A DNA stretch of 64,000 nucleotides from Nitrospirales bacterium (GTDB lineage: Bacteria; Nitrospirota; Nitrospiria; Nitrospirales; UBA8639), in contig OY820905.2 in assembly GCA_963555755.3 (NCBI GenBank), positions 768,001 to 832,000 on the forward strand. The letters are read 5' to 3'. The notes below the pieces were generated by a model. The model worked only from the letters and a program-made list of their open reading frames with translations, was not told where the DNA came from and did no database searches. Shown piece by piece: positions 1,089-30,969 of the stretch; within the stretch, counting starts at the first letter, position 1; every line of letters begins with the position of its first letter. Position numbers and translations under genes: made by a program.

Positions 1089-1159
1089 AAATACTTGTGA
1101 TATCCCTGATTATATTCTATCCTACATTCCGCACTTGAAAACGTGTATTTTTCTGCCCC

Positions 1160-2809
1160 TCATGTATCGCCTCTTTTTTTTGCGCCAAACTGCGGTTGAG
1201 GGATTTTGAGGAGTTGCAGCACTTGGTGCTGTGGCTCGGACCACTCATCCCAAAAGGTCCTCACCAGCTTGCCGTCACGAAGAATCTCGTACCTGCAGTG
1301 CTGGGCAAAGAGTCGCTGGACTTGTTCCCAGGTCGGGGTCGAGGTGGGTCGTTCCTCGGGGAGGGTTCGCAGGGTTCGAATACCGCTCTTCTCCATCGCA
1401 TGTCTGAGATCGCGCTGAATGAGGGCGGCCACGAGATCGGCGAGGTAGACCACGAGCATGAGGGCCTCGATGCGTTCGTTGTTCTTGAGGAACACCGGCG
1501 CCACCTGGAAGTCGGACTTGAGGCCGCTGAAGCGCTTCTCGATATGGGGCTGATACTTGTACGCCTCGAGGACCGCTTTGGCGGAGAGGGAGGTATTCGT
1601 GACCAGCGGAAAGATCCCATCGATGGCCTTGGCCCGAGCGAGCTGTTCCGGGTCTTGCTGGATCATGAGCTGCGGAATGTGTTTGACGGTGCGATGGTAG
1701 GTTGACGCGGGCGAGGGTTTGCCGCGGGCGGTCTGTGTGAAGGTTTCCTCCACGCGGTGGCTCACGGTCACCGTGAGCCACAGAGCCACCTGATACCTCG
1801 CGATGATCTGGTGGGCCTGCTTGAGTAACGAGCGCTCAGTTCGGCGCCCACGCGCTTTCTTCTCGTTGAGCGCCGCGAGTTTGTGCCGAGCGATCTCCAG
1901 CCGGTCCTTGCGGCGGCTGGCATCGCGATTTCTCTTCTCGGAGGAGCGATACCAATAGAGTCGAAACCCCTCCGCCAGCTGATACGCCTCGCTCGCGACC
2001 GAAAACACGTCAGACATCCCCCGCCTTCGAGTCGAGCGCTGGCGTAGGAGCGGGTCCCAGCGGACGGTCGCCTCGTAGCAGTCGGTGGCAAACGCGTGGG
2101 TTTCGGCCCGGGTCCGAGGGACGATGGTGACAAACCGACCGTGTTCCTGGTCAATGCGCCGCATGTTCGCGGTCGTGCATAATTTGGAGTCGGCGACGTA
2201 GAGGAACCCGGCCCCGCCCACCAAGCGGCGCAACGTCAGCCAATTCTCGATATGCAGGGTATCGTCGGTCTGATGGCCCGCATGGGTCTTGAAGTGAATC
2301 GGCACGGCTCCATCGCGAGCCATCGACAAGTTGTAGAGGAGCTGTTTCAGATCGGGACGATGATCCTTGCTGTGGCCCCGCGTGAGGTGGACCCCTTTGC
2401 GCGATTGCGCCGTGTACGCCCCCGAGAACTTGACGGAGGTGGAATCACTATGGATCTGGGAGACATCAATCGCGAACCGGGCAATGGCCACCAGCGTGAG
2501 GGTGGGCTGCACGGTCGCGCGATCTGCCTGGAACAACCGGTCGAGGGCCCGTCCCAGCCCAGCATCGGTGAGCGGCGCGGCTCCTCGCTCAATAGGGTCG
2601 AACTGCTGGGCCCAGGCTGGGACGCGGTAGAGCGCTGCCGGTTCGATCAGCAGGCTTTTGATGAGGAGCTCAATCGCCGCAGCGTACCGCGCCGAACAAA
2701 GAATGTCCTCCAGGCGGTGGCGCACCCCAAGCGTCGCGAAACAGCGATTGATGAGTGGGAGGGTCGCGATCCGTACCTTCCGATGCTGCAAATCTTTGGC
2801 TTGCATCAC
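1160..2809 (-). CDS. IS1634-family DDE transposase
   Basis: Motifs DSTSVKFSG, GHSKDHRPDLKQ, YVADSK, YKYQPHIEKRF. Confidence 0.9.
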   Translation of the reverse strand: MMQAKDLQHRKVRIATLPLINRCFATLGVRHRLEDILCSARYAAAIELLIKSLLIEPAALYRVPAWAQQFDPIERGAAPLTDAGLGRALDRLFQADRATVQPTLTLVAIARFAIDVSQIHSDSTSVKFSGAYTAQSRKGVHLTRGHSKDHRPDLKQLLYNLSMARDGAVPIHFKTHAGHQTDDTLHIENWLTLRRLVGGAGFLYVADSKLCTTANMRRIDQEHGRFVTIVPRTRAETHAFATDCYEATVRWDPLLRQRSTRRRGMSDVFSVASEAYQLAEGFRLYWYRSSEKRNRDASRRKDRLEIARHKLAALNEKKARGRRTERSLLKQAHQIIARYQVALWLTVTVSHRVEETFTQTARGKPSPASTYHRTVKHIPQLMIQQDPEQLARAKAIDGIFPLVTNTSLSAKAVLEAYKYQPHIEKRFSGLKSDFQVAPVFLKNNERIEALMLVVYLADLVAALIQRDLRHAMEKSGIRTLRTLPEERPTSTPTWEQVQRLFAQHCRYEILRDGKLVRTFWDEWSEPQHQVLQLLKIPQPQFGAKKRGDT

Positions 2810-2838
2810 GCCCTATCTTAATGCATAATAGCATTAAG

Positions 2839-3138
2839 ATGTCACGCGCAAAGATGATCCACCTCCGGGCGCCCGGACCCGTTCTGCCCGGGAGTGTGTC
2901 GACAGCAAGGGCGCGATGCGGCAAACAGACGTGCAAGTGTCGGGACGACCCGGCCCACCGACACGGGCCCTATTATCGCTGGACAGGCCTCATCGACGAA
3001 AAGAAGACCACGGTCACGCTCACGCAGGAGGAAGCCAGGGAGTGCGTACGACGGATTAAGAACTTCAAGAAACTGCAGGCGAAGCTGGCGACAGTGAGCA
3101 AGGAGGCGCTTGAAACCGCTCCGTGGACCCGGCGGTAA
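2839..3138 (+). CDS. DUF6788-like small Zn-binding protein inside IS1634
   Basis: GSVS..RCGKQTCKC..HGPYYRWT motif plus basic coiled C-terminus; start chosen at ATG 2839. Confidence 0.75.
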   Translation: MSRAKMIHLRAPGPVLPGSVSTARARCGKQTCKCRDDPAHRHGPYYRWTGLIDEKKTTVTLTQEEARECVRRIKNFKKLQAKLATVSKEALETAPWTRR

Positions 3139-3516
3139 GAGCTAGGCGCTGGACACCACTGGTGGGTTCCAGGTTAAATGCACGTTCTCAAGTGCGGAAT
3201 GTAGGTTCTATACATCCGGCTTCATTTATTTCGTGAAAATTTTTGTTATTCCTTAAATTAATAAATAATCAGATATCAGCCATCAGCGTTTTGGCTTTGG
3301 TAGCTATTGGAACCTTCGCCACCTGCGTTTATGCGGACGACTTCACTGTCAAGAGTGGCGAGACTGTGTCTACACAGATTCTCGACGGTGATGACAAAGG
3401 CGTGGTAGAAAAAGGCGGCGCTATAAAACCAACCAATAGTGGTGATAATGGCATTAACATAACCGGTAATGATAACACTGCGATCAACAACGGTTCTATC
3501 GAGACGGTGGGAGGCG

Positions 3517-5419
3517 CAGGGCCATTTCATTCTTTTTATAAGCAAGGGATTCCATGAGGTTTTTTGTGCCCTCTTTTTCAGGGCAGGGCCATGCGGATGG
3601 CTAAATGGGGCTTGCCCCAGAGCAGTCTACACGCCTGCGCGATATTGGTGTAGCCTTTCAGGCGTAAGAGACTGATGGCATAGCGTCTCAGACAGGTCAT
3701 GACCATTGGGCCATTGAGACTTCGTATCTGACTCCTGTCTTCATCAAAGGTGACGTCCAACACATAATGCTGCTTATTCTCCACACTCCAATGCTTTCGG
3801 TTTTGCGAGAGGATGGTCTTCGGCCCCGCCTTGTCTTTGGACTGACTCGTGACACCGCAGACCGCTTCGACGGTCGTGAGGCCCTGCTTGAGATGCGTCA
3901 CTTCCCTCTCAATGCAGAAGACTTGCTGGACATGAGGAAAGTTGACATAGGCATTCAGGGAGTCATCGCACCAGATCCTGCGGGTCGTGATCTGCCCATG
4001 GCCTTTCTCGGTGGTGGCATAATCGCACCGGCGTGCTCGCAACGCTAAGGCCTCAATGTCGTGCTTCAAGGTGGGCTGGTTTCCCTTGACGGTGAAGACG
4101 AAGTCGGCGCCGCGTTCGTGCACCAGGTACTCGGCAATCTCTTTCTGGGTGAGGAGCGCATCCGCCGTGATCACCTTCCCTGCGATCTCGAGCGCATCTA
4201 ACAGGGGCCGCACGCAGGGGATCTCATTGGTCTTGGAGTGAACTTTTTTTGGGTGAGGTGGCGCCCGGCTTGATGGGTGACGGCGCTGAGGACGTGGGCT
4301 GTTCGCTTGGGACCTTCGACGTCCCCCGCATGGTCTTCCCATCAATGGCAATGCCCTGATCCTCCCCGCCGAAGGTGTCCAGCCACCGGCCGAGCAGGGT
4401 ATCGACTTCACAGGGGTCGACGGCCGTGATAAAGCGGTAAAGAGTGCTGCGGCTCGGGACGAGGTAGCGCCCCCCTCGCTGAGTACAGCCTAGCCGCTTG
4501 CGCATCGGCTGCGATAACTGCTGGGCCCAGTCCGAGATCGCTTCATAGCCGCGCGCGCCGCACAAGGTGGCACAGAACATGATCGCCGTGAGGGCGCGTC
4601 GGGTGTGCCGTTGCCCTTGCAAATGGCGGGGATCGGTCAGCTGCACCACATACGTAAAGAGGGAGTCCGTCTGTTTTGTATTCAATCTCATCTGAGGCGC
4701 TTCTCCTTTCTGATAGGGCTGATCAAGCATCGGGCGTGCAAGGATCTCTCGGGCTTGGGGATGCAGCCGCACGACTAGGATGCGCTTCGGTCTCTCATGC
4801 TGAACATAACACGTGTTCGACTTGCGAAACCCTCGTGTCAGACCGAGCTCGTGCCACCCGGCGGCCCGATAGCAGGTCCCGGTGAAGCGGGCAGGATCGA
4901 CGAAGGTCTCTAAGAGGAGCAAGGGGTAGCCGTGGTACAGTTGCCAATCGGACGAGATCCGTTTCGCGCAGAGCGACAGGACTTTCGAGGCGAGGTTCTT
5001 TTGCGAACAGCCCGGCAGCATGAGAAACCGGGTGTTGTTGGCCAGTAAATGGAGTCGTTGCCATTGAAAACAGGGGGGCCAGCCGATCCAGTGGTCTCGC
5101 GGTCTCGATTTGAGGGCCGCCGCCGCAAACACCAGCAAGGCCAGCCAGCGATCCTGCACACAGGCGAGATATTGTATCGATTGGCCAATCAGCGGGGCAT
5201 GACCGAGGTAGTGGTGTCTGTCGAGAAGGGTCTTGAAGGCGTCCTTTTCGTCTCGGACAATTGGGCGAACCACGACTTGCCTCAGATCAATGTCCGGCTG
5301 TCCGCTTGGCGATTCGTCTGGCATGCAAAAGAGTATGCCGTAAACGAAAAGAAAAAGCCAGCCTAAATCGATTATTCCTTATTATCTATAAAGTTACACT
5401 TTAATATGAAATAGCCCTG
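3517..5419 (-). mobile_element. ISAs1-family element
   Basis: TIR CAGGGC(C/T)ATTTCAT; 10-bp TSD GTGGGAGGCG (3507-3516 / 5420-5429). Confidence 0.92.
3578..5324 (-). pseudogene. DUF4338 (DruA-like)-ISAs1 transposase fusion, frameshifted near 4240-4300
   Basis: N-term HHYLG..LANNTRFL..LETFVDP..GTCYRAAGW; ISAs1 motifs AIDGKT, KTNEIP, TADALLTQ, VKGNQ, HWSVEN split over frames. Confidence 0.8.
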
Positions 5420-5429
5420 GTGGGAGGCG

Positions 5430-6070
5430 ATGCCTATGGTATTAACTTATTCGAATCCGACAACAATACCATCAACAACGACGGTTCTATATCGACGACG
5501 GGTGCAAAAGCCCATGGTATTTACCTGACCGGCAACGACCCTAACGGCTCCGATGCCAATACAATTAACAACGACGGTTCTATATCGACGAAGGGTTTAG
5601 ATGCCAATGGTATTGGCTTATCTGAATCCGACAACAATACCATCAACAACGACGGTTCTATATCGACGAAGAATGAATTTTCCCTTGGTATTATATTGGT
5701 CAATTCCCACAACAATACCATCAACAACGACGGTTCTATATCGACGGATAATATAAATGTCACGATGAGAAATAGCGATGGTATTGGCTTATTCATTTCC
5801 AACTTCAATACCATCAACAACGACGGTTCTATATCGACGAAGGGTACAGCTTCCTATGGTATTTACTTATTCGATTCCGACTTCAATACCATCAACAACG
5901 ACGGTTCTATATCGACGAAGGGTATAGATGCCGTGGGTATTGGCTTAGACGAATCCAACAACAATACCATCAACAACAACGGTTCTATATTGCCGAAGGG
6001 TAAAGGTGCCTTTGGTATTGACTTACTCGATTCCCACAACAATACCATCAACAACGACGGAGATATCTTC
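5430..6070 (+). repeat. ~78-bp intragenic tandem repeats (8 units) of autotransporter copy 1
   Basis: Recurrent AATACCATCAACAACGACGGTTCTATATCGACG. Confidence 0.9.
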
Positions 6071-7407
6071 GTTAGTGGCGCTGGAATCTTTGCGCTTCGG
6101 GATAGGGGATCCGGTGACAATAATACCCTGAACCTGTATTCCCGTTCACGAATCATTGGCCGAATTGATTTTGGCGATGGAGTAGAGACGGTCAATTTCC
6201 ATTTCAAGAAAGCGGGTTTTTCTTCCACGTTGAGTTTTGAGAATACGGAGTCTATCAACCTGCATGACGATAATATGGTGAATGTGGGAGGCCTGACAGG
6301 AGTTTATTCGGTGGTTGATCCCACCGGTCAGTCAGTGAACGGAGCTGTTCTTGGTTCGATCACAAAAGATATCCATGGAATCCTGACCCGCCGTACGAGT
6401 CGGATGTCGAACACGAATCCCTCGCAACTGGCTTCGACCCGTGTGGAACCGGGAATGATGTCCTCTTCCCAAAAATCACAAGTCTGGGCGAGCGGTTTCG
6501 GCGCCCACCGTTCACGCGATGAAGATGGCCGTGTTCTCGCTTATGACCACGTTTATTACGGCGGCGTCGCCGGTTATGAAACGGCAACCCGTCAAGCGAG
6601 TATCGGCTTCATGGCGGGCTACGCTCAATCTGATGTAAGAACAGATTTAACCTCGATCAACACCGATAGCGAAAGTTATTTTGTCGGCGCTTATGGTCAG
6701 AAAAGATTCGCGAGCTTCAACCTGGACGCCTCTTTGCTCGCCGGTTACGAGCGCTATGACAACGACCGTATTGTGGTCGATAACCTGAATAAGTTTGAAA
6801 CTGCCGAGGCGGCTTATGACTCTTTTTTTCTAAGTCCGTCAGTCACTTTGAGTAGCGAAATCAGGGTATTCGACAAGATAGCGCTTCGTCCTTCAGTAAC
6901 CGGGATTTACAGCGTCGCATGGTATGACGATTACACCGAATCGGGCACAACCCGATCTAACCTGTCCATCGACGACCGATTCTCGCATGCCCTGATCGGA
7001 AAACTGCAAATTGCGGCGGCGTATGTGTTCAGCAATGGCAGCGAAATAGGGATTAGAGGAGGCGGCAGGTATCGCTATACGATCAATGATGATGTTGACG
7101 CCACATTAGCGGGAACGTCTTTTCGATATGCCGCGGCCGGAGACGACACTTACTTTGCAGCCATAGCGGGCGCCAATGCGCGCGTTGCGTTAATGGACAG
7201 TATCAACCTGACCGCCAATGCGGAATATGCATTCGACGATGGCATTGAAACCACCCTGTCAGGCCAACTCGTCCTTGAATTTATTGGCTCTTTAGCAGAA
7301 TCTTCGGCCTTGAATTTATTGGCTCTTCAGCAGAATCTGTGGGTGACTTGGTTCAAATAGAATAGAATAGGAATAGGGGTCAAATCTTTGAATTGAAATA
7401 GAATAGG

Positions 7408-7531
7408 GTAGAGTAGAACACTGGTGCTCACCTGGAGCTACTCTCGAACGCTTCGACGCACGCGTCTACAACGGACCACAGCAGTCAGCAATTCCCAGCG
7501 TCCCCTCATCAATCCGTGCATACAGTTTTCC
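7408..7531 (-). ncRNA. 3' remnant (half of domain V plus domain VI) of group II intron A
   Basis: Near-identical to 28872-28975 joined to 30970-30989; ends ...TTCTACTCTAC on minus strand. Confidence 0.85.
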
Positions 7532-12507: not shown

Positions 12508-13734
12508 ATGCTTATAACGTATGTTCTTGGTGCTTGTCCTAAATGTCGAAGCGAGAACTGCTTTGGCAATGTATCCGTGCAGGGTGACCGAGTTCTTCGG
12601 GGTTGCGAAAGTTGTAACTACCATATGACCATTTTTCTTCCAGTAATCAGGAAGAAGATCCTGTACCTTGACCAGTTTTTTTTAAGTAATGCCTTTCTGG
12701 GTAAGGATGAGCGGTTCGTCGAAGCAGCACAAGGGATTCGGAAACTTTCGGACTTTCAACTCTTGGTAGTCCCGTTCTCATCCATCCATGAAGATGAGAC
12801 ACATCAATGGAAGGGATTCGGTGGCAAGAACAAAGAAGACCTAATGGAGTTCGTCAAGACTAGCTCGGGAGGGCATGAATTCCAACAGGACTATGAGGTC
12901 GAAGAGAAGCAAATCGTTACGGCGTTCCAGAATTATATGGAAGGAAAATCAGCGGAATTCATGCTTGAAGCAGATGATGCGATTGAGGGCAACATCCATG
13001 AATGGGATGACTACTATCGAATTGATGTTGGTTCTTACCTTGGAGATATCCAAGTAATTCGAGATTTGAAAGGGAAGTCCATACAAACATTGGTCGACGT
13101 CTTCGAGGATTGGCGAAATTCTACTAGTACTTTTGAACAAGATGTGGAGATTGAAATAGCAGATGCCCGAAAAGGGTACATACAATCATATCTGGATTAT
13201 GTGCAACGGATGGTTCTTGGTGATTACGAGGCGATGTTCGATTCGCCCGTTAAGTCCCAGGTTGTTCAGGCGATGCTACACTGCTTTACTAATGAAACCC
13301 CATGGGCGGAACGTCTGCAAAAGGTAGGGGAATTTTTCCGTTCTGATCACTTTGCCCAGGTACCCTATCAATGGGTTTCTGCAAGGATTTATGCAAAGCT
13401 TAAGGATATGGTCAAAAACGAGGGAGCGTATGCAAATCACGAAAAGGCTAAAGAGCGCTTAAGTGGATTCTTCTCTGATGTTAAACATGTCGCCATTTAT
13501 TCTCCGTATTGTGACGCATTCATAATGGATAAGGCGATGGCTCATCTTGTGAATGATCCACGTGTGGGGCTACATAACAGATACGGTGTAAAGGTTTTCA
13601 GTTTGAATAATTGGGACGAATTGTTTTATTGGCTCAACACTCTTGAAGAAGAGATGTCGACCGCGCATAAGGCTGCGTTGTCAGAAGCTTATCCCTGGAC
13701 TTCTTCCCGGCCCCTGGATGGAGGCCGTCATTGA
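12508..13734 (+). CDS. Hypothetical protein: N-terminal Zn ribbon plus PIN-like domain
   Basis: CPKC..C..CESC; ILYLDQ, HEDE, SDVKHVAIYSPYCDAFIMDKAM acidic pattern; lower GC than flanking IS. Confidence 0.65.
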   Translation: MLITYVLGACPKCRSENCFGNVSVQGDRVLRGCESCNYHMTIFLPVIRKKILYLDQFFLSNAFLGKDERFVEAAQGIRKLSDFQLLVVPFSSIHEDETHQWKGFGGKNKEDLMEFVKTSSGGHEFQQDYEVEEKQIVTAFQNYMEGKSAEFMLEADDAIEGNIHEWDDYYRIDVGSYLGDIQVIRDLKGKSIQTLVDVFEDWRNSTSTFEQDVEIEIADARKGYIQSYLDYVQRMVLGDYEAMFDSPVKSQVVQAMLHCFTNETPWAERLQKVGEFFRSDHFAQVPYQWVSARIYAKLKDMVKNEGAYANHEKAKERLSGFFSDVKHVAIYSPYCDAFIMDKAMAHLVNDPRVGLHNRYGVKVFSLNNWDELFYWLNTLEEEMSTAHKAALSEAYPWTSSRPLDGGRH

Positions 13735-14512: not shown

Positions 14513-15794
14513 AGAGAAGGACCCGGAAAAATTGACACCGCCTTAAGTGGATAGGTAGACCTGTTTCAAGTATTTTCATGTCATTCACAGGAGCTTATCA
14601 TGAGTCGACGAATCAGACGCAATCACCAACCCGTATTCAAGGCGAAAGTGGCGCTTGCTGCCCTGAAGGGCGATGTAACCACTGCCGAATTAGCGAAGAA
14701 ATTTGAGGTCCACCCGAATCAGATCTCACAATGGAAAACACAGCTGCTCGAGAAGGCCCCCGGCGTCTTCGATGAGAAGGGGCGCGAGACAGTCCCTCCC
14801 GTTGATGTGAAAACACTGCATGCCAAGATCGGGCAATTGACGCTGGAGAATGATTTTTTAGAAGGCGCGCTCGGCAAGGCCGGACTTCTGAGCGCAAGGC
14901 CATGATTGACCGGACCCATGCACTACCCGTATCACACCAAGCCAAGATACTCGGATTATCGAGAGGCTGTCTCTATTATCAACCTGTACCACTCAGTGAG
15001 AGTGAACTCGGGTTGATGCATCGTTTGGATACACTGCATCTGGCACACCCGTTTGCCGGTTCGCGTATGTTGCGAGACTTGCTACGATTGGAGGGCGCCA
15101 CCGTTGGGCGCAAACACGTGAGAACCCTGATGAAACGGATGGGCATCGAAGCCCTCTATCGCCAGCCCAGGACGACGCAGGTGCATCGGGGACACGCCGT
15201 GTATCCGTACTTACTCCGTCATCTGTCTATTACGCGGTCCAATCAGGTGTGGGCCTCGGATGTCAGCTACATTCCGATGTAGCCCATGGATTTGTCTATT
15301 TGACGGTCATTCTCGACTGGTATAGTCGCCGAGTCCTGTCCTGGCGCGTATCGGTGACGATGGATGTGGAATGTATTATGGATGCCTTGGAGGAGGCGAT
15401 TGAGAAATATGGCTGTCCAGAAATCATGAACACTGATCAAGGCAGTCAATATACCAGTGAGCGATTCCTCCAAGCGCTCAAGGATCGAGAGATTCAAATT
15501 AGCATGGACGGCAAAGGAGCCTGGCGTGACAACATTTTCGTCGAACGACTGTGGCGATCAGTCAAATATGAGGATATTTACTTGCATGCCTATGAAACTC
15601 CGAGTGATGTCAAACAAGGCCTGAAACGGTATTTTCAATTCTACAATACCAGTCGTCCACATCAGGCACACCGGGGCCAGACACCCGACACGGCGTATTT
15701 CCACCTGTTGCCTGTAGCCAAGGTAGCATAATTCATTGGGATACTTTCCACTTAAGAATTGGCTTGAGGTGTGCAGTTAAACGGGACCACCTCT
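14513..15794 (+). mobile_element. IS3-family element; orfA 14600-14905, orfB 14902-15731 broken at ~15280
   Basis: orf[22 protein letters not shown]; orfB WASDVSY, NTDQGSQY, DNIFVERLWRSVKYE; imperfect TIRs; ends approximate. Confidence 0.85.
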
Positions 15795-15990
15795 TTCGTC
15801 TGCGGTACCCCGAGCTGAAGCAGACCTACTGGGGCGCGGTGCTGTGGTCTCCCGGGTTTTTCTCGTCGACGGTTGGGTTGAATGAGGCGGTTATCCGGCG
15901 GTACGTGGACCATCAAGAACGAGTGGACAAAGGGCACATGCAGCTCAAGTTTGAATTTTAAGTGCCACGGGGCGTGAGCCCGTGGGTATC
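15795..15990 (+). pseudogene. tnpA: IS200/IS605 TnpA C-terminal fragment with right-end hairpin
   Basis: LWSPGFFSSTVG..IRRYVDHQ; hairpin CCACGGG..CCCGTGG at ~15965-15984. Confidence 0.8.
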
Positions 15991-20886: not shown

Positions 20887-21285
20887 TTTGTCATCTAAAC
20901 CTTCTTCAGGTGTCTTTGAATTGGCGCAGCGTGACTGGTTGAGTCGCCGTTGTCGAATTCACGCGAGGATGAAAAGGGATCGGGATTCTTTTTATTGAGA
21001 GTTTCACATTATAGCAGACTTTCCACTTATCGCCGATTGCTCCGCGATTGAGCATTCCTCAACATTTTTTTAAGGGCGGAGCTGGCGTAAAGTATTAGTC
21101 AACAAAAATAGGGGTCAAAATAGGGGTCACCTATTAGCAGGCTCCTGTCAAGTGGGCACACGACTCCTCTCATTTTCTCCATGCTTCTAAAATCCTGTCT
21201 GCTTGTTCCTCGCGGTGAGGAAACCAATTCGCGCCTGGGTTTTCATCGGGCGGATCTTCCCCCGAGTTTTGGGCGGATTTTTGGC

Positions 21286-23074
21286 TCTAACCTTTTGATG
21301 TCATTGAAGAAGTCACGGTTTGGGCGAGGCCACGTCTCTGCCTACACATGCACCTTGGCTGGCCGTGTGGTGGTGGCAGGCGGGGTGATCCCCAATGCGG
21401 CAAAGATGGTTGCCTGCCTAGCATCGGGGCGAGCCAGCTGAAGCACCTCCTGCCCGCCGATTGCATGGCGTTGGAAACACAATCGTGACAGGGCCCCCAG
21501 GGCGTCTTGAAGGGTCAGCGCCTGGGCGCTCTGCTCCGTCGTCCCAAACGCCTCCTTCAGGCCTCGCTCGCCTTCCCGGGCCACTTTCAGGGCGAGCATC
21601 GCGGCAAAGACATGGCCACGCGTGCGGCTCTCCTTCCGCACAAAGATGGGGCGCAGTTCGAGCAAGCCCGTCTTCATCGTCCGGAAGTCGCGTTCCACCC
21701 GTTGCAGGTCCCGGTACCGGGCATCCACCGTCGCGGCATCCATCGTGTCCCGAGCCACATCGGTTTCCAGCACCGAACAGCCATCCAACAGGGCCGCCTC
21801 GGCCTGCTTGGCCTCATCAATCTCGACCACAAGCTGGGTCCCCTGCAGGGCGAGGGTGGTGAAGGCGGAGAGCTTGTGCTTCTTGGCCCACTGGGTCAGC
21901 TGCCGCTGTCCCGCCGCCGGGGTGGCCCGCTTGGCCTTCTGGACAAACGCATTGCGCGCCGCGACCTTCTGCTGCAGTGTGGCCACTTTGTCCTGACGTC
22001 GCGTGGCCACCGTGTGGCGCAACGCCTCATTCCGCCGCAGGATCAGCCGACGAGACCCATCCTCCACTTCCTGTATCGTCTCATCAAACAAATTGAGTTG
22101 GAGCACATCTTTCTTCAGCAAGGTGCGAATCTGCGGGTCAGTGAGGGCGGTGAGGTACTTGAGTCCCTGCTCGGTGAGGGCCGCCTTGCCTGCGGCTTTC
22201 ACCATCCCCCGATCCCCCACACACACGACGTCGGTGATCTTGAACTGGGTCTTGATCCGTTCAATCTGCTCGGCGACCGTGCGGGGATCCGCCGTATTCC
22301 CCTTGAACACCGTGACGGCCAGCGGCTCACCATCCGGCCCTGTCAGCAACCCAATCACAATCTGCTTCTTGTGCTTCTTGCCGTCCCGGTTATACCCATA
22401 GGCGGCCAGTTCATTCTTGTCCCCCTCAAAATAGGAGGAGGTCACGTCATAGAGCACCAAGACCGGGGGCTGGCCGGTCCGCTGGACAGAGGCCCGATAC
22501 AGTTTCTTCTCGATGGCTTCTTGTTGGGTGCCCAACCAGTCTAAGGCCTCGTACAGGTCATCCTCGTCAAAGGCGGGCAATCCCAACACCTCAGCGACCG
22601 CATGATCGGTGGCCCACCGCACGGCTGACAGCCGCGAACCCTGATGAGCCACTCGTGCCAGCACCAGGAACAGGGCGAGCTTGGCTACTCGTTTCGGACC
22701 CAAGGCCGACACCACTCCCACCCGTTGGGCCACCGCTTTCAGGGCGAAGAGGACGCCAAAGATCCGATCACTCACGGGGCCCGCCTCGTCTTCCGTTCCA
22801 TCGAAATCCCCACGGAGGCAGCGCTTGAGCGCGTCTACGCGAGCCGGAGGCCACGAGGTCAGATTGGCCAGGGTCCGGGTCTTCACCTTGCCGCCCGCTC
22901 GGTAGCTTTCGCGCAATAAAATGGCGGGCGGGGAGGTGCGGTTAGGAACGGTGGCGATATACATGCTTTATGTATAGCATAAATAAAGCATTATAGTCAA
23001 GATAAAACAACAATTACATGCCTACATTACAGAGAGCAATCCAATCTTTCCCTGAAGAATTCCAACAGCTTAGG
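21286..23074 (-). mobile_element. Second IS1634-family element (transposase 21342-22964)
   Basis: MYIATVPNRTSPPAILLRESYR, LYDVTSSYFEG, GYNRDGK, VGDRGM, VERDFRTMKT; weak (T/C)CTAA TIR with TGGC on both flanks; ends approximate. Confidence 0.85.
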
Positions 23075-23442
23075 TGGCAAACATGGGGGGAAGATCCGTC
23101 GGGATCGATGTCGTCTCGTTCACTGAGACGCACCAGTCACCCATCAGGATCAAGACCCATGAGGGCGGCGGTGTCACCCGCCCTCCGGTCCCTGGCACGA
23201 CGTGCCCCAGAAAACCTTCAGCGCCCGGCCCGTGTCCAGTCGGAAGAAGAACAAATCGTGTGGCTGTTCGCCGGTGTGCATACTCGCGGCTGAACGCCAA
23301 CCCCTTCGTGGCTCACGGTCGAGGCGACGCAGTTCCTCCCACGTGCGGGAGAAGCAGGAGGGGGTGAACGCGGCGAATCAAATCTGCTGGTTGTGAACCA
23401 CCCCCTTGTCCAGCTCACCCCCACCCCCGTGTGTATACAGCC
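23075..23442 (-). ncRNA. Candidate IS110 bridge/seek RNA
   Basis: Structured non-coding region after tnp containing AGATTTGA (target-like) and CTGATGGGTGA (matches own end CTAATAGGTGA). Confidence 0.6.
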
Positions 23443-23981
23443 TTACGCAACGGCACGCTCGACATCAAAGGCCACCTCATCGCGCATGAGGTAAAAACAC
23501 GCCCGGGCCAATTTATGGGCCACGGCCTTCAAGGCAATGAATACATTGGTCTTGGCCAGCTTGCGGTGGTAGTATCGGCGAATCTGTGGGTCGTGCCGCA
23601 TCGCAAAGTGGGCGGCTTCCACAAACGCCCAGGCTAAATATTTATTCCCATTCTTGGTGTTGCCCTTCCCCTTGCGTTTCCCCTTGCTGAGTGTGGTGCT
23701 GCTCACACACCGGCAGTACGAGGCAAACTGGCCCACCGTGGAGAACCGCCGCCTATCGCCCGTCTCTACCATGATGGTGCAGGCCAGGGGTTGGCCAAGT
23801 CCGGGGACGGTCTGCAAAAACCGAAACGCGGGCCGGAGGCGAACACGGGCTTTCACCGCCCGCTCGATCAGGGTAATCTGCTCGGCAAGGTGGTGCATCA
23901 CGGCCAGAGTCGCTTGCACGGCCATCGCATGTTCCGGCAGGGACACCCATTCGCTGATCGTCTCAGGCCGAAGTTGCTTGA

Positions 23982-24559
23982 AGGGTATACTCCTTCCGCC
24001 AGATCTGCTTGAGCCGAGCCACCGTACTGGCGGACAGCCCCTTGGCCTCTGGGCCCACGAGGACTTCCAGCGCCGGTTGCATCTCTCCCGTCGAGATGCC
24101 TTGTAAGTACAGCCATGGGATCGCCGCTTCCAAGCTAGCCGACTTGCGCACATACGGGGGGACCAGCGCCGAGTGAAACGTGACCGGTTTGCCCTGGCGA
24201 CTCCGTACTTTTGGGACTTGTACGGGCACCGGCCCAATGCCCGTCTGAATGTCGCGCGTCGGCTGATGGCCGCTGAGGACAACCCTCGCATGCCCCTGTT
24301 CCGTTGACTGGTCTGCATAGGTCGCCAAGAGCTCGGCCACCTCCGCTTTCAGGGCTTGGGCAAGAAGCTTCTGCGCCCCTGTTCGAATCAACTCCGTCAG
24401 CGAATCGGTCCTTCCTCGATCTTCTTCCTCTGATTTGGTACATTCCTGCATCGTGGCGTCTCTCCTTTGTGGTTGTGGTGGATGTCTCGCAACACCCATT
24501 TCAACCCGAGACGCCGCGTGTTTTCAACTGATCCTAGACACTACTTTCAAGTATAACTC
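23982..24559 (-). mobile_element. IS256 5' fragment (start of duplicated block)
   Basis: Matches 511-1088; fused directly to the IS110 fragment. Confidence 0.9.
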
Positions 24560-24591
24560 AAATACTTGTGATATCCCTGATTATATTCTAT

Positions 24592-26676
24592 CCTACATTC
24601 CGCACTTGAAAACGTGTATTTTTCTGCCCCTCATGTATCGCCTCTTTTTTTTGCGCCACACTGCGGTTGAGGGATTTTGAGGAGTTGCAGCACTTGGTGC
24701 TGTGGCTCGGACCACTCATCCCAAAAGGTCCTCACCACCTTGCCGTCACGAAGAATCTCGTACCTGCAGTGCTGGGCAAAGAGTCGCTGGACTTGTTCCC
24801 AGGTCGGGGTCGAGGTGGGTCGTTCCTCGGGGAGGGTTCGCAGGGTTCGAATACCGCTCTTCTCCATCGCATGTCTGAGATCGCGCTGAATGAGGGCGGC
24901 CACGAGATCGGCGAGGTAGACCACGAGCATGAGGGCCTCGATGCGTTCGTTGTTCTTGAGGAACACCGGCGCCACCTGGAAGTCGGACTTGAGGCCGCTG
25001 AAGCGCTTCTCGATATGGGGCTGATACTTGTACGCCTCGAGGACCGCTTTGGCGGAGAGGGAGGTATTCGTGACCAGCGGAAAGATCCCATCGATGGCCT
25101 TGGCCCGAGCGAGCTGTTCCGGGTCTTGCTGGATCATGAGCTGCGGAATGTGTTTGACGGTGCGATGGTAGGTTGACGCGGGCGAGGGTTTGCCGCGGGC
25201 GGTCTGTGTGAAGGTTTCCTCCACGCGGTGGCTCACGGTCACCGTGAGCCACAGAGCCACCTGATACCTCGCGATGATCTGGTGGGCCTGCTTGAGTAAC
25301 GAGCGCTCGGTTCGGCGCCCACGCGCTTTCTTCTCGTTGAGCGCCGCGAGTTTGTGCCGAGCGATCTCCAGCCGGTCCTTGCGGCGGCTGGCATCGCGCT
25401 TTCGCTTCTCGGAGGAGCGATACCAATAGAGTCGAAACCCCTCCGCCAGCTGATACGCCTCGCTCGCGACCGAAAACACGTCAGACATCCCCCGCCTTCG
25501 AGTCGAGCGCTGGCGTAGGAGCGGGTCCCAGCGGACGGTCGCCTCGTAGCAGTCGGTGGCAAACGCGTGGGTTTCGGCCCGGGTCCGAGGGACGATGGTG
25601 ACAAACCGACCGTGTTCCTGGTCAATGCGCCGCATGTTGGCCGTCGTGCATAATTTGGAGTCGGCGACGTAGAGGAACCCGGCCCCGCCCACCAAGCGGC
25701 GCAACGTCAGCCAATTCTCGATATGCAGGGTATCGTCCGTCTGATGGCCCGCATGGGTCTTGAAGTGAATCGGCACGGCTCCATCGCGAGCCATCGACAA
25801 GTGGTAGCGGAGCTGTTTCAGATCGGGACGATGATCCTTGCTGTGGCCCCGCGTGAGGTGGACCCCTTTGCGCGATTGCGCCGCGTACGCCCCCGAGAAC
25901 TTGACGGAGGTGGAATCACTATGGATCTGGGAGACATCAATCGCGAACCGGTCAATGGCCGCCAGCGTGAGGGTGGGCTGCAACGTTGCGCGATCAGCCT
26001 GGAATAACCTGTCGAGGGCCCGTCCCAGCCCAGCATCGGTGAGCGGCGCGGCTCCTCGCTCAATCGGGTCGAACTGCTGGGCCCAGGCTGGGACGCGGTA
26101 GAGCGCTGCCGGTTCGATCAGCAGGCTTTTGATGAGGAGCTCAATCGCCGCAGCGTACCGCGCCGAACGAAGAATGTCCTCCAGGCGGTGGCGCACCCCA
26201 AGCGTCGCGAAACAGCGATTGATGAGTGGGAGGGTCGCGATCCGTACCTTCCGATGCTGCAAATCTTTGGCTTGCATCACGCCCTATCTTAATGCATAAT
26301 AGCATTAAGATGTCACGCGTAAAGATGATCCACCTCAGATCGCCCGGACCCGTTCTGCCCGGGAGTGTGTCGACCGCAAGGGCGCGATGCGGCAAACAGA
26401 CGTGCAAGTGTCGGGACGACCCGGCCCACCGACACGGGCCCTATTATCGCTGGACAGGCCTCATCGACGAAAAGAAGACCACGGTCACGCTCACGCAGGA
26501 GGAAGCCAGGGAGTGCGTACGACGGATTAAGAACTTCAAGAAACTGCAGGCGAAGCTGGCGACAGTGAGCAAGGAGGCGCTTGAAACCGCTCCGTGGACC
26601 CGGCGGTAAGAGCTAGGCGCTGGACACCACTGGTGGGTTCCAGGTTAAATGCACGTTCTCAAGTGCGGAATGTAGG
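24592..26676 (-). mobile_element. IS1634-family element, copy 2 (transposase 24631-26280; DUF6788-like 26310-26609 on +)
   Basis: Same TIRs, same TTCTAT TSD and same flanks as 1121-3205. Confidence 0.92.
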
Positions 26677-26713
26677 TTCTATACATCCGGCTTCATTTAT
26701 TTCGTGAAAATTT

Positions 26714-28823
26714 TTGTTATTCCTTAAATTAATAAATAATCAGGTATCAGCCATCAGCGTTTTGGCTTTGCTTGCTATTGGAACCTTCGCCACCTGCGTT
26801 TATGCGGGCGGCTTCACTGTCAAGAGCGGCGAGACTGTGATGATTACACAGGAACTCGACGGTGATGACAAAGGCGTGGTAGAAAAAGGCGGCGCTATAA
26901 AACCAACCAATAGTGGTGATAATGGCATTAACATAACCGGTAATGATAACACTGCGATCAACAACGGTTCTATCGAGACGGTGGGAGGCGCAGGGCCATG
27001 GTATTCACTTATTCGAATCCGACAACAACACCATCAACAACGACGGTTCTATAGAGACGATGGGTCACAGGGCCTTTGGCATTTACTTAGACGAATCCCT
27101 CAACAATGCCATCAACAACAACGGTTCTATAGAGACGGAGGTACGAGGTGCTTCTGGCATTTACTTAGACAAATCCCTCAACAATACCGTCAACAACAAC
27201 GGTTCTATAGAGACGATGGGAGACTTTGCCTCTGGCATTTCCTTATCCGGTTCCACCACCAATACCATCAACAACAACGGTTCTATAAAGACGGTGGGAA
27301 AAGACTCCTATGGCATTTCCTTATCAGCTTTCACCACTAATACCGTCAACAACAACGGTTCTATAGAGACGATGGGAGAAGGTGCCCATGGCATTTTATT
27401 ATTCGCTTCCGACACCAATAATACCATCAACAACAACGGTTCTATAAAGACGATGGGAGAAGGTGCCCATGGCATTTTCTTATTTTTTTCCGATGCCAAT
27501 ACCATCAATAACGACGGAGATATCTTTGTTACTGGCGTTGACAGCTTTGCTGTTTTGGATGATGGAAACAAGCAGAATAAAAACAATACCCTAAACCTGT
27601 TTTCCCGTTCGCGAATCATTGGCCGAATTGATTTTGGCGATGGAGTAGATACGGTCAATTTCCATTTCAAGAAAGCGGGTTTTTCTTCCACGTTGAGTTT
27701 TGAGAATACGGAGTCTATCAACCTGCATGACGACAATATGGTGAATGTGGGAGGCCTGACAGGAGTTTATTCGGTGGTTGATCCCACCGGTCAGTCAGTG
27801 AACGGAGCTGTTCTTGGTTCGATCACAAAAGATATCCATGGAATCCTGACCCGCCGTACGAGTCGGATGTCGAACACGAATCCCTCGCAACTGGCTTCGA
27901 CCCGTGTGGAACCGGGAATGATGTCCTCTTCCCAAAAATCACAAGTCTGGGCGAGCGGTTTCGGCGCCCACCGTTCACGCGATGAAGATGGCCGTGTTCT
28001 CGCTTATGACCACGTTTATTACGGCGGCGTCGCCGGTTATGAAACGGCAACCCGTCAAGCGAGTATCGGCTTCATGGCGGGCTACGCTCAATCTGATGTA
28101 AGAACAGATTTAACCTCGATCAACACCGATAGCGAAAGTTATTTTGTCGGCGCTTATGGTCAGAAAAGATTCGCGAGCTTCAACCTGGACGCCTCTTTGC
28201 TCGCCGGTTACGAGCGCTATGACAACGACCGTATTGTGGTCGATAACCTGAATAAGTTTGAAACTGCCGAGGCGGCTTATGACTCTTTTTTTCTAAGTCC
28301 GTCAGTCACTTTGAGTAGCGAAATCAGGGTATTCGACAAGATAGCGCTTCGTCCTTCAGTAACCGGGATTTACAGCGTCGCATGGTATGACGATTACACC
28401 GAATCGGGCACAACCCGATCTAACCTGTCCATCGACGACCGATTCTCGCATGCCCTGATCGGAAAACTGCAAATTGCGGCGGCGTATGTGTTCAGCAATG
28501 GCAGCGAAATAGGGATTAGAGGAGGCGGCAGGTATCGCTATACGATCAATGATGATGTTGACACCACATTAGCGGGAACGTCTTTTCGATATGCCGCGGC
28601 CGGAGACGACACTTACTTTGCAGCCATAGCGGGCGCCAATGCGCGCGTTGCGTTAATGGACAGTATCAACCTGACCGCCAATGCGGAATATGCATTCGAC
28701 GATGGCATTGAAACCACCCTGTCAGGCCAACTCGTCCTTGAATTTATTGGCTCTTTAGCAGAATCTTCGGCCTTGAATTTATTGGCTCTTCAGCAGAATC
28801 TGTGGGTGACTTGGTTCAAATAG
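26714..28823 (+). pseudogene. Autotransporter copy 2, +1 frameshift at ~26995
   Basis: Leader in ORF 26714, remainder in ORF 26943; 7 NT(I/V)NNNGSI repeats; barrel near-identical to copy 1. Confidence 0.85.
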
Positions 28824-28975
28824 AATAGAATAGGAATAGGGGTCAAATCTTTGAATTGAAATAGAAATAGGGTAGAGTAGAACACTGGTGCTCACCTGGA
28901 GCTACTCTCGAACGCTTCGACGCACGCGTCTACAACGGACCACAGCAGTCAGCCATTCCCAGCGTCCCCTCATCA

Positions 28976-30969
28976 GTAGGGTCGAGGACTGGCGCGCCAA
29001 CGGTAGGGTTCGGTGGCTCCTCCACCCCTTTCGGAATGGGCCTCAGTCCGACTCCCCTGGTCACGGTTCCAGTCCCCGCCACCTCAAACCCGGCGTGCTG
29101 ATTTCCAGCACCGGGCTTTCCTGGATGCTTCACCTCAAGGGTTATGTGACCTATCAGCCTGGAAGGACTTTCATGCCGACCCGTTGTACCGCACTCGGTA
29201 ATCTCCATATAAGCCAAGTACCGTGTAGAGCCAAACCTTACTCCACCTCTTCCAGCCAAAACCTCGACGGTGGCGCACTCGCATCATGTGCCGCCGGACC
29301 TTCCGCTCCACCCAATCCTTCACGTAGGATAAACACCGACTCGCATGCCCAATCCGGAAGTAGTTCACCCAGCCCCGTACGATCGGATTGATCATGGCGA
29401 TCATCCGTCCCACCGGCTGGGATTGCCCGCGTCGGAACACTTCCTTGAGCTTCCGCAGCAACGCGGTGCGCCGCTTCACCTTCGGTATGTACTGCGGGCG
29501 CCACACTCCACGCCGCGACCGCACACGCCGAAAGTCAAAGCCCAGAAAGCCGAAGCTGCCTCCCTGACTCAGGTCCACGATTCGGCTCTTCTCCTCATTC
29601 ACCTGAAGGTCTAATTGGGCCAACGCCTCTCGCAGCTTCCGCTCCGCAACCTGCGCCAGTTGTGCGTGGCGGCGATAGCCATCCACTAACACGACGAGGT
29701 CATCCGCAAACCGGACATACTCGAGATACGTATACTGGCCCTGCCGGGTTGTCTCCTTCAGCTGCTCCAGCCTCTCATCCACTTCCGTGAGATAGAGGTT
29801 GGCCAGCAGCGGGGAAATCACACCCCCTTGAGGCACCCCACGCGGGCCGGACGCCTTGACGATGAGTTTCACCAGCCGCAGGATCGCGGGATCCTGGATG
29901 CGTCGGGCCACCTTCGCCAGCAGCCGGTCATGCCGCACCGTGTCGAAGAAGGCCGCCAGATCCACATCAATCACTCGCGTCTTGTTCTGCACCATCGCCT
30001 GAGCCACCCGGCCAATCGCCTGGTGGGCTGTCCGTTTCGGTCGATACCCATACGACCCATCACGAAAATCCGCCTCAAAGATCGGTTCCAGCAGGAGCTT
30101 GAGCGCTCCCTGTACCACGCGGTCCCGAATCGCGGGTATCCCTAAGACGCGGACTCGTCCACCGCCTTTCGAAATCTCCACGTGCCGGTTCCGCATCGGT
30201 CGGTAGGTCTGCGTGACCAGTTCGTCCCGTAGTCGTGCAAGAAAGGGCTCCACCCCCGTGGCCTCGATGCCAGCAAACGTCACCCCATCAATGCCGGGGG
30301 CTCCGTTGTTTTTCTTGGCCATCGAATAGGCCGCGCGTAGCGTCGCCTCTTTGCACACGTGGACGTACAGGCCCCACACCCGCCATCGCTTCTCAGCCTT
30401 CGCCTTGACGTAGAGCCGCTGTCGCAGGTCTTGCAGTGTAATGGACGCCGTTGTCATCTCGTCCCTGCCTCCCATGTTGATCACAGCCTACAGCCAGTAG
30501 GGCTCCTTTGCTCCACAGGCATGACCCTGCTTCCTCGCTCCTACGAGCCCCTCCGCCACCCTCTCGTCTTCGGCTCACTTCCCAGAGAGCTGGTTATAGA
30601 GCCGATCTTCCTCCAGGGATTTCTCCCTGGGACGAGGAGGGCTTCTCCAGTTGCGTCGTCTGTCCTTGCTCCCGTGCTGTCGCTCTCACCCCGCCGGAGT
30701 GGCCAGGCGTCTCAGCCTTGGTTCGCCTGTCCATGCCGTCTTCGTCCTACGGACAGGGACTCGACCTCCGAGGTTTCATACTTTCGAGGCTACCTCTGCG
30801 TTCACTTTCGTTACGGCCCGGGAACTCGCTCACCATCCTCTACGATGGCTTTGTCGATGGGCTTCAGCGTCTCGGTTTCTCTCCACGCTGCCATCCAAGC
30901 TACAGGGCTCAGGCTCTTACCCTGGTGGGCTTGCTTCCCACTGAACAGTCTCGCCTTACCTGGACACAC
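28976..30969 (-). mobile_element. Group II intron C, inserted in domain V of intron A
   Basis: 5' GTGTGTCC, 3' ..GACCCTAC; empty site present at 7511/7512; EBS1 GTCCGT (30749-30754) pairs with ACGGAT. Confidence 0.92.
29171..30484 (-). CDS. ltrA: Group II intron RT/maturase of intron C (class E-like)
   Basis: [44 protein letters not shown]; no endonuclease domain. Confidence 0.92.
   Translation of the reverse strand: MINMGGRDEMTTASITLQDLRQRLYVKAKAEKRWRVWGLYVHVCKEATLRAAYSMAKKNNGAPGIDGVTFAGIEATGVEPFLARLRDELVTQTYRPMRNRHVEISKGGGRVRVLGIPAIRDRVVQGALKLLLEPIFEADFRDGSYGYRPKRTAHQAIGRVAQAMVQNKTRVIDVDLAAFFDTVRHDRLLAKVARRIQDPAILRLVKLIVKASGPRGVPQGGVISPLLANLYLTEVDERLEQLKETTRQGQYTYLEYVRFADDLVVLVDGYRRHAQLAQVAERKLREALAQLDLQVNEEKSRIVDLSQGGSFGFLGFDFRRVRSRRGVWRPQYIPKVKRRTALLRKLKEVFRRGQSQPVGRMIAMINPIVRGWVNYFRIGHASRCLSYVKDWVERKVRRHMMRVRHRRGFGWKRWSKVWLYTVLGLYGDYRVRYNGSA

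What the first reader, a model, noticed from the sequence alone, without database searches (positions are those of the whole stretch)
21127..23442. IS110 non-coding end with readable donor and target guides pointing at the AGATTTGACCCC motif
Seen: removing the IS1634 rejoins a hairpin (CGGATCTTCCCCC at 21251 / GGGGGAAGATCCG near 23086) and gives a ~530-nt right end finishing TTGACA..CTAATAGG|TGACCCC. Within it, CTGATGGGTGA (23137-23147) matches the element's own end CTAATAGGTGA (21127-21137) at 9/11, and both mismatches are G:T-compatible. AGATTTGA (23378-23385), next to GGGG and a small hairpin, matches AGATTTGACCCC sites at 7376-7387 and ~28840. Established: IS110/IS1111 elements use bridge/seek RNAs with such guides and form junction promoters. 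Inference: a bridge RNA programmed for this repeat with a TG(A) core. The matches are short and the left end is missing here.
Basis: partly seen in the sequence, partly recalled or inferred. Interest (0 to 1): 0.72.

Follow-up and report, generated by a model that had tools for sequence, protein, structure and literature searches.

The report
Three-loop guide RNA, two target readers
This is the tail of a broken jumping gene that encodes a predicted guide RNA; in its intact relatives one loop tracks the landing site (here likely a repeat present 65 times in the genome), one matches the element's own end, and an extra middle loop tracks the same landing site more loosely, possibly to help the element cut itself out again.

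Summary
Core claim holds; details are wrong. The stretch is the 460-nt right end of a 5'-truncated IS1111-group IS110 element, split by an IS1634.

Wrong: the 'rejoined hairpin' is the IS1634's own terminal inverted repeats; the two window target sites are one duplicated segment; the core is 2 nt (YG), not TGA.

Right: AGATTTGA (23385-23378) is a left-target guide. Across relatives it tracks the insertion flank (4.09 of 5 vs 2.33 shuffled; independent pairs 11:0). CTGATGGGTGAC is the donor guide. The predicted target AGATT-TG-ACCCCTT is a repeat with 65 copies (0.65 expected) that flanks some TIRYT-like tyrosine-transposase genes.

Its guides switch when the target switches (2.91 vs 2.10; pairs 7.5:0 at one of five tests), but it fits the flanks better than loop 1 in only 3 of 95 insertions. 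It is a looser reader of the same site, not a second address. Its role is inferred, not shown.

The scan reported this three-loop layout before on other DNA (e1-8755768, e1-8274008, e1-8707511); I found no paper text describing it.

The parts
23443..23982 (-). C-terminal 179 aa remnant of an IS110-family (IS1111 group) recombinase gene; 5' half and left end lost
   Evidence: PF02371 only. Closest intact relatives are 76% identical, 339 aa, with PF01548+PF02371. Single copy in the genome.
23359..23430 (-). Predicted target-binding loop 1 (stem, right-target guide, small hairpin, left-target guide)
   Evidence: Outer stem with compensatory changes in 65 clusters and in a 12-sequence fold.
23400..23407 (-). 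Right-target guide of loop 1 (AAGGGGGT); predicts CCCCTT after the core; one mismatch (G for the usual T) opposite target +3
   Evidence: Guide-flank complementarity 4.93 vs 4.11 shuffled, 74 clusters, 0 of 1000. The same GGGGGT variant occurs in one relative, L117.
23378..23385 (-). Left-target guide of loop 1 (AGATT-TG-A)
   Evidence: 4.09 of 5 vs 2.33 shuffled; independent pairs 11:0 at -1 and 7.7:0.1 at -3.
23224..23324 (-). Second target-type loop (loop 2): same GAGCC...guide-TGG-hairpin-CCA-guide...TGGAC layout; guides AAGGGGTT (23306-23299) and CGATT-TG-T (23258-23251)
   Evidence: Stem 85-100% paired with many compensatory changes. Tracks flanks more weakly than loop 1.
23136..23147 (-). 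Left-donor guide CTGATGGG-TG-AC; matches the element end, the core and two target bases (the right junction)
   Evidence: Nearly invariant. Its +3/+4 bases equal target +3/+4 in 110 of 121 elements, in four states AC/TC/GC/TG.
23210..23215 (-). 5' strand of a conserved helix predicted to close the donor domain; its partner lies beyond the IS1634
   Evidence: Pairs with 21244-21239 in the consensus fold, 86-100% paired. GTTGTC/GACAAC compensatory variant in 5 elements.
21239..21244 (-). 3' strand (GAAAAC) of that helix: the real pairing that the IS1634 splits
21251..23098 (-).
   Evidence: 10 copies in the genome with identical ends; NF033559; empty-site contig.
21130..21151 (-). Right end: -35 box TTGACA (21151-21146) and sub-terminal inverted repeat GAGCCTGCTAAT, then AGG
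   Evidence: Relatives: left and right repeats match at 10 or more of 14 in 93 of 97. TTGAC lies 14-17 nt before a TGATAAT-like left end at the predicted circle junction.
21121..21129 (-). Core TG (21129-21128) and right half of the target, ACCCCTA, continuing as a TGACCCCTATTT tandem
   Evidence: 25-nt identity to the 3' part of an AGATTTGACCCC array at C1:96830.
7376..7387 (-). Uninterrupted copy of the predicted target repeat AGATTTGACCCC
28839..28850 (-). Second window copy of the repeat, inside a duplicate of the segment holding 7376
23982..24559 (-). IS256-family fragment abutting the truncation point of the recombinase gene
   Evidence: PF00872 and NF033543; further copies in the genome.

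Best explanation
This is the non-coding right end of a broken IS1111-group IS110 element, encoding a predicted three-module guide RNA in which loop 1 likely chooses the insertion site (here predicted to be the 65-copy AGATT-TG-ACCCC repeat), the third module likely reads the element's own end, and a conserved middle loop tracks the same site loosely and would most plausibly help grip the flanks during excision. In an intact relative, circularisation would join TTGACA to a TGATAAT-like -10 box and transcribe the recombinase and RNA (inferred from established IS1111 biology). Loop 1 would pair with both strands of the target around a 2-nt YG core, top-strand guide first. The base after the core in loop 1 matches the donor side, and the two after the core in the donor guide match the target side, so both guides fit the insertion junctions (shown as sequence covariation; a handshake-like role is inferred). 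Loop 2 follows the target only near the core, keeps an invariant TG and usually has a base after the core that fits neither side, so it is unlikely to complete insertion. A tolerant flank-reading role in circle formation is my best guess (about 0.35 on its own). This copy is likely inactive: the recombinase is truncated and an IS1634 splits the RNA.
For: Anatomy: (element median 1551 bp, right end median 448 nt, sub-terminal repeats). Structure. Loop 1 covariation: 54 clusters, 4.07 vs 2.63, 0 of 2000; 66 clusters, 4.09 vs 2.33, 0 of 1000; 21 clusters at 70%, 4.18 vs 2.14; pairs 11:0, p 0.001. Loop 1 core equals left-end core in 126 of 128. Donor guide +3/+4 equals target in 110 of 121; loop 1 +3 is A in 155 of 157; donor +3 is A in 131 of 131. 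Loop 2: 2.91 vs 2.10 (left) and 4.20 vs 3.80 (right), 0 of 1000 each, holding at 70% clustering. Pairs 7.5:0 at -1 (p 0.016); loop 1 vs loop 2 at -1, 10.4:0.2 (p 0.002). Both loops switch together in distant clades with other targets: L108/L123/L258, L256/L257, L263, L267, L227. Target repeat: 65 copies, 50 followed by TT as the AAGGGG guides predict; outward-facing pairs; beside a Y1+DnaA_C transposase gene. ISEc11 needs target-derived flanks on both sides to form circles (PMC11187229).
Against: No RNA, binding or recombination data. The left flank of this copy is lost, so its own target is inferred. Loop 2's tree-aware signal is significant at 1 of 5 tests (p 0.016, uncorrected), absent in the smaller first set (p 0.06; right guide 1.60 vs 1.65), and rests on a FastTree tree. 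Loop 2 did not follow the TGGTC-CG clade (L102, L096). Its +3 base (T 129, A 13, C 9, G 7) does not match the target side either, which an excision handshake would predict. Donor +3 covariation has only 3 informative independent pairs (p 0.25). No right-donor guide could be shown. Only 4 of 17 Y1 transposase loci have the exact repeat within 1.5 kb. Only 27 of 96 family targets fit GGGGWSAS fully. In relatives G111 and G112 matching empty repeats are rare or absent.
Confidence: 0.62

Rival explanations
1. Loop 2 is released or used as a separate target-only RNA, so one transcript supplies two target-bound recombinase dimers for a circle-free direct-transfer route (old left junction to new target).
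For: Target-only RNAs are the most abundant species in ISEc11 and CazIS110-1 and support partial direct transfer (PMC11187229; 10.1101/2025.10.25.684509). Each module folds as a self-contained stem.
Against: Those systems do it with fragments of a single loop. Loop 2's poorer fit is not explained. No small-RNA data here.
Confidence: 0.15
2. Loop 2 is a structural or vestigial duplicate that binds recombinase but not DNA; its resemblance to the target comes from shared ancestry or occasional copying from loop 1.
For: It rarely fits best (3 of 95), changes less often on the tree (26 vs 37 changes), and is tree-independent at one position only. An earlier scan note found a second loop not tracking in another family (e1-8324746, not tested here).
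Against: Guide positions change with the target in several distant clades while neighbouring hairpins differ in length and sequence. Loop 1's TG-to-CG core change (13 of 157) is never copied to loop 2 (158 of 158 TG) and +3 usually differs, so copying would need tracts of 1-3 nt.
Confidence: 0.15
3. Loop 2 is a second, independently programmed address that lets the element insert into another repeat class.
For: Full loop architecture; it differs from loop 1 at distal guide positions; L187 fits loop 2 slightly better.
Against: Loop 1 fits better in 84 of 95 insertions, tie in 8, loop 2 in 3, one of which has a miscalled end. Loop 2 moves with loop 1, not away from it.
Confidence: 0.06
4. The matches are chance short words in a decayed non-coding end.
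For: 8-11 nt matches; window-level motif count at chance with 2 mismatches.
Against: Position-specific covariation in relatives and conserved compensatory stems.
Confidence: 0.02

Closest known systems
IS1111-group seekRNA elements ISEc11, ISKpn4, ISPst6, ISPa11 (Siddiquee et al. 2024, PMC11187229; parts 1-3 of 9 and passages read)
   Same: About 339-aa recombinase, long non-coding region downstream, sub-terminal inverted repeats with a 7-nt left extension, junction promoter, top-strand guide 5' of bottom-strand guide, repeat targets (ISPa11 targets REPs).
   Different: The text read describes one target-matching pair in a 70-100 nt RNA (long form 145-170 nt). Here there are two target-type loops plus a donor module over about 345 nt, and a different target.
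IS621 / IS622 (ISCro4) bridge RNAs (Durrant et al. 2024, PMC11208160, passages; PMC13626964, passages; 10.1101/2025.05.14.653916, passages)
   Same: Target and donor guides around a 2-nt core; wobble tolerance; guide bases next to the core that fit the exchanged product; REP-type targets. IS1111 RNAs are predicted in the right end with donor guides in a multi-loop.
   Different: Two loops, RNA in the left end, reversed guide order. [quoted passage not shown]
ISGsu4-like IS110 elements
   Same: A plasmid relative at 56.5% to L056 is annotated 'IS110-like element ISGsu4 family transposase' and has the same three modules (L260).
   Different: The name is the depositor's label; ISGsu4 itself was not compared. 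One paper mentions it (listing only).
TIRYT / TIRtron terminal repeats (Di Nocera et al. 2013, PMC3733652, passages; 10.1101/279083, passages)
   Same: The target repeat reads GGGGTCAA on one strand (7 of 8 to GGGGWSAS), forms outward-facing pairs and flanks a Y1 transposase with a DnaA_C tail.
   Different: The last position departs from the consensus. IS110 targeting of these repeats was not mentioned in the passages read.

Membership tests
IS110 family | Recombinase with N-terminal DEDD RuvC domain (PF01548) and C-terminal PF02371 | tested here: met
   Both domains and NF033542 above cut-off in intact relatives L056/L133. The window remnant has PF02371 only; its N-terminus is deleted.
IS110 family | Insertion at a specific site around a short core, without target duplication | tested here: met
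   YG core at both ends in 97 complete relatives (ends were called with a YG pattern, so this is partly by construction). Multi-copy elements share flanks. Uninterrupted targets exist.
IS1111 group | Sub-terminal inverted repeats with about 7-nt left and about 3-nt right extensions | tested here: met
   10 or more of 14 matches in 93 of 97 relatives; left repeat starts 7 nt in. Only the right repeat survives in the window.
IS1111 group | Long non-coding region downstream of the gene; recombinase 330-350 aa | tested here: met
   Right end median 448 nt, left end about 90 nt; most intact ORFs 337-352 aa.
IS1111 group | Promoter formed at the circle junction | tested here: inconclusive
   TTGAC 14-17 nt before a TGATAAT-like left end in the 87 relatives scored. 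Circles and transcription not observed.
seekRNA / bridge RNA | Loop with guides to both target strands, top-strand guide first in IS1111 | tested here: met
seekRNA / bridge RNA | Donor loop with left and right donor guides | tested here: inconclusive
   Left-donor guide found and covarying at +3/+4. The right-donor candidate shows no covariation at 70% clustering and also forms an RNA helix.
seekRNA / bridge RNA | RNA is expressed, binds the recombinase and is needed for movement | not testable with these tools
   Only assembled contigs were available.
canonical two-loop bridge RNA | Exactly one target loop and one donor loop | tested here: not met
   Both target-type loops called in 157 of 158 elements (lenient caller, set pre-selected for the donor motif).
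TIRYT terminal repeat (target) | GGGGWSAS motif in inverted repeats flanking a Y1 transposase gene | tested here: inconclusive
   7 of 8 motif match; inverted copies on both sides of the gene at C1:761688 (Y1_Tnp + Bac_DnaA_C); 4 of 17 Y1 loci have the exact repeat within 1.5 kb.

The most novel reading that the evidence does not exclude
A widespread IS1111 clade divides labour between two target-reading loops in one RNA: a strict, fast-reprogramming loop for insertion and a tolerant, slower-changing loop without a product-favouring base for excision from imperfect sites. This would be a natural directionality switch and would explain why IS1111 elements need target flanks to circularise.
Probability: 0.3. 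Interest if true: 0.75.

Novelty: new variant of a known kind. Interest (0 to 1): 0.5.

Why it matters
How IS1111 elements excise, and what their long RNA does beyond the short seekRNA, is stated as open in PMC11187229. This family gives a direct test: about 150 natural alleles with readable guides, several target switches, and a middle loop that can be deleted or reprogrammed separately. If loop 2 serves excision, removing it could make bridge-editor insertions more stable, and reprogramming it could control reversal. The data also show a family that largely lands in TGACCC-type repeats across several phyla and retargets by changing 1-5 guide bases. The window copy itself is a likely dead relic, and RNA-guided repeat targeting by IS110 elements is already established.

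Tried and rejected
1. Hairpin rejoined by IS1634 removal: rejected, these are IS1634 terminal repeats.
2. Full-length or second copy in this genome: none. tblastn finds only the remnant; the other 22 PF02371 hits are unrelated at E 1e-4.
3. Rfam: nothing real, two chance hits below gathering score.
4. Loop 2 as donor loop: 0.34 of 5 matches to the donor end.
5. Right-donor guide at 23217-23210: complementary to the left end at +2, +3, +5, +6 (91-98%) but no covariation at 70% clustering (526-571 of 1000 shuffles reach it; 4 and 135 of 1000 at 90%). It is explained by an RNA helix.
6. First test of loop 2 used a register off by two and was redone.
7. Expression: RNA runs X8 and X19 are contigs. 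X19 covers 23069-23273 at depth 3.6; X8 does not cover the RNA region but covers the IS1634. This shows neither expression nor absence.
8. Viral contigs: no relatives.
9. Single-sequence minimum-energy folding of the window RNA does not recover loop 2 in the whole transcript; it does when the module is folded alone. Local alignment of the two window modules is only modestly above shuffles (58 of 2000), so their likeness rests on the family alignment.
10. Literature search for the target motif by letters returned noise.
11. Searches for a described second target loop: 0 papers; 1 irrelevant paper; also 18, 21. Figures are not held and no supplements were opened, so Durrant Fig. 6d / Ext. Fig. 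10c and Fig. S12 of 10.64898/2026.10.21.760802 may already show such a structure.

Full report
What is at the locus. On the minus strand, 23982-23443 encodes the last 179 residues of an IS110-family recombinase (PF02371). An IS256 fragment abuts the break, and no other copy or left half exists in the 4.6-Mb genome. An 1848-bp IS1634 (NF033559) occupies 21251-23098. One contig of an independent DNA run joins 21245 to 23099. With the IS1634 and one duplication removed, the right end is 460 nt. The IS1634 does split a predicted helix, but a different one: 23215-23210 with 21244-21239.

Relatives. The remnant found matches in 20 of 114 other genomes of the same family, 79 loci in genome contigs and 80 in metagenomes. 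Further loci came from a pattern search, a Burkholderiales sample and 12 of 18 plasmid hits. Intact elements have a median length of 1551 bp, mostly 337-352-aa DEDD recombinases, a short left end, a right end of median 448 nt, and sub-terminal inverted repeats matching at 10 or more of 14 in 93 of 97. These are the IS1111-group features listed in PMC11187229 (parts 1-3 read). The shared core is 2 nt: the third base is A at every left end but varies at right ends.

Loop 1 is the target guide. In the first set (95 insertions, 65 clusters at 90% RNA identity, 79 with a left flank), RNA columns at 23385-23381 matched flank positions -5 to -1 at 4.07 of 5 against 2.63 for shuffled clusters, 0 of 2000 (per-position z 2.6-8.2). 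The larger set began with 203 loci; 171 had a recognisable donor motif, 158 were distinct and 151 entered the tree. Two left flanks (L226, L265) were dropped as miscalled, and right ends not starting with TG or CG were left out. The left guide scored 4.09 vs 2.33 and the right guide 4.93 vs 4.11, 0 of 1000 each, and both held at 70% protein clustering. Tree-independent pairs went 11:0 at -1 and 7.7:0.1 at -3; the other three tests ran the same way without reaching 0.05. The order is top-strand guide first, as reported for IS1111 seekRNAs.

The target. The window guides spell AGATT-TG-ACCCC-TT. AGATTTGACCCC occurs 65 times in the genome against 0.65 expected, in 26 clusters, 13 with both orientations, and 50 of 65 copies continue with TT. 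Inverted copies flank a Y1 tyrosine transposase with a DnaA_C tail, the layout of TIRYT elements whose repeats share GGGGWSAS (PMC3733652; 10.1101/279083; passages read). The match is 7 of 8, and only 4 of 17 Y1 loci have the exact repeat within 1.5 kb, so this label is likely rather than certain. The element's surviving right flank is identical over 25 nt to the 3' part of one such array. The left flank is lost, so insertion at AGATT rather than at a TATTT unit of the tandem is inferred; relatives with the same guide have AGATT in 9, AGACT in 8 and other flanks in 6 of 23. Across the family only 27 of 96 targets fit GGGGWSAS fully, and matching empty repeats are few or absent in some relatives.

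The donor guide. CTGATGGGTGAC (23147-23136) is almost invariant. Its two bases after the core equal the target's two bases after the core in 110 of 121 elements, across four states (AC 98, TC 9, GC 2, TG 1), though only 3 independent pairs are informative. The base after the core in loop 1 is A in 155 of 157, like the donor side (131 of 131). So both guides fit the insertion junctions, reminiscent of the handshake pairing described for IS621 (PMC13626964, passages); the mechanistic equivalence is inference. The window's end CTAATAGG is unique among 121 ends and shared with a relic at C1:1419743. A right-donor guide could not be demonstrated.

The middle loop. Between loop 1 and the donor module lies a second module of the same layout with a strongly compensated stem, called in all 158 elements by a lenient caller. 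In the window its guides spell CGATT-TG and AAGGGGTT, again the same repeat, and its right guide is the better match because loop 1 carries a G opposite target +3. Family-wide it scores 2.91 vs 2.10 (left) and 4.20 vs 3.80 (right), 0 of 1000, also at 70% clustering. Independent pairs go 7.5:0 at -1 (p 0.016, one of five tests, uncorrected) and 10.4:0.2 between the two loops at -1. In distant clades with other targets both loops change together: GAA-TG-TCC in L108/L123/L258, GGCTT with TTGAC in L256/L257, GAAT in L263, AAAGT in L267. Against a strong reading: the first, narrower set gave p 0.06 and no right-guide signal, the TGGTC-CG clade is not followed, and loop 1 fits the flanks better in 84 of 95 insertions, ties in 8 and loses in 3. 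Loop 2 keeps TG in 158 of 158 even where loop 1 and the site have CG, and its +3 base mostly fits neither donor nor target. It is therefore neither a second address nor a simple copy.

Mechanism. Shown by sequence: anatomy, guide-flank covariation for loop 1, weaker covariation for loop 2, donor-guide match to the right junction. Taken from established IS1111/IS110 work: circle formation, junction promoter, RNA-bound recombinase, strand exchange at the core (PMC11208160; PMC11187229). Inferred: loop 2 grips the target-derived flanks of an inserted element during circle formation, where a tolerant guide would suit the imperfect sites these elements often occupy; ISEc11 needs both flanks to circularise. 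The direct-transfer route of CazIS110-1 with target-only RNA (10.1101/2025.10.25.684509; abstract and two sections read) is the main alternative.

Novelty. Guide-directed repeat targeting by IS1111 elements is known. Full-text searches for a second or tandem target loop found no relevant paper. Passages of a 2026 review (PMC13604230), of the bioRxiv version of Durrant et al. and section 2.4 of 10.64898/2026.10.21.760802 describe two loops or 'diverse' structures; passages of 10.1101/119735 added nothing on the target. Figures and supplements were not seen and may show it. Earlier notes of this scan report the same three-loop layout in other genomes; I saw them after reaching this reading (first look-up) and treat them as leads only. 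Verdict: a real, well-supported IS1111 guide-RNA locus in a likely dead copy, a new variant by its extra target-reading loop, whose function is testable but unproven.

Noticed in passing
G000:C1:1419656-1419757 and C1:337489-337570: Two further relics of the same right end (82% identical) without a recombinase gene. One is followed by TGACCCC, the other by TTGCCCCC: independent past insertions at similar sites.
   Followed up: partly
G000:C1, e.g. 88390/88518, 2217844/2217970, 1568764-1569107: The target repeat forms outward-facing pairs about 126-128 bp apart (miniature elements) and tandem arrays with degenerate TGACCCC(T/A)TTT tails. At least two other TGACCC families exist: AGACC (17 copies) and GAGTC (24).
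   Followed up: partly
window 21090-21129: The right flank runs TGACCCCTATTT twice and then directly into the inner part of an opposite-facing repeat that lacks its outer GGGGTCAAATCT end, suggesting a rearranged repeat pair.
   Followed up: no
window 511-3525 vs 23982-26999, and 5549-7511 vs 27018-28975: Two segmental duplications (98.5% and 91%) carrying IS256/IS1634 fragments and an autotransporter gene with internal repeats; the IS110 truncation point coincides with the edge of the first.
   Followed up: partly
L101, L106, L142 (donor guide): Three relatives carry a similar hairpin of about 32 nt inserted in the middle of the donor guide, splitting CCTGATG from its downstream half; in L142 the right end also looks altered.
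   Followed up: no
L059, L103, L131 right ends; L124: Some elements have duplicated or re-used right ends (a second end motif shortly downstream), and L124 has lost loop 1 but kept loop 2.
   Followed up: no
window 29171-30484 (-): Group II intron reverse transcriptase/maturase ORF (RVT_1 + GIIM) just beyond the second target-repeat copy.
   Followed up: no
window 15788-15916: Fragment of a Y1 tyrosine transposase (PF01797 positions 78-121).
   Followed up: no
window 4224-5324 (-) and 12508-13734 (+): ORF with DruA plus DDE_Tnp_1_assoc hits, and a 408-aa ORF with no Pfam or NCBIfam hit.
   Followed up: no
IS1634 copies in G000: Their 5-bp target duplications fit a loose consensus NC(T/C/G/A)G(A/G), suggesting a target preference.
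   Followed up: no
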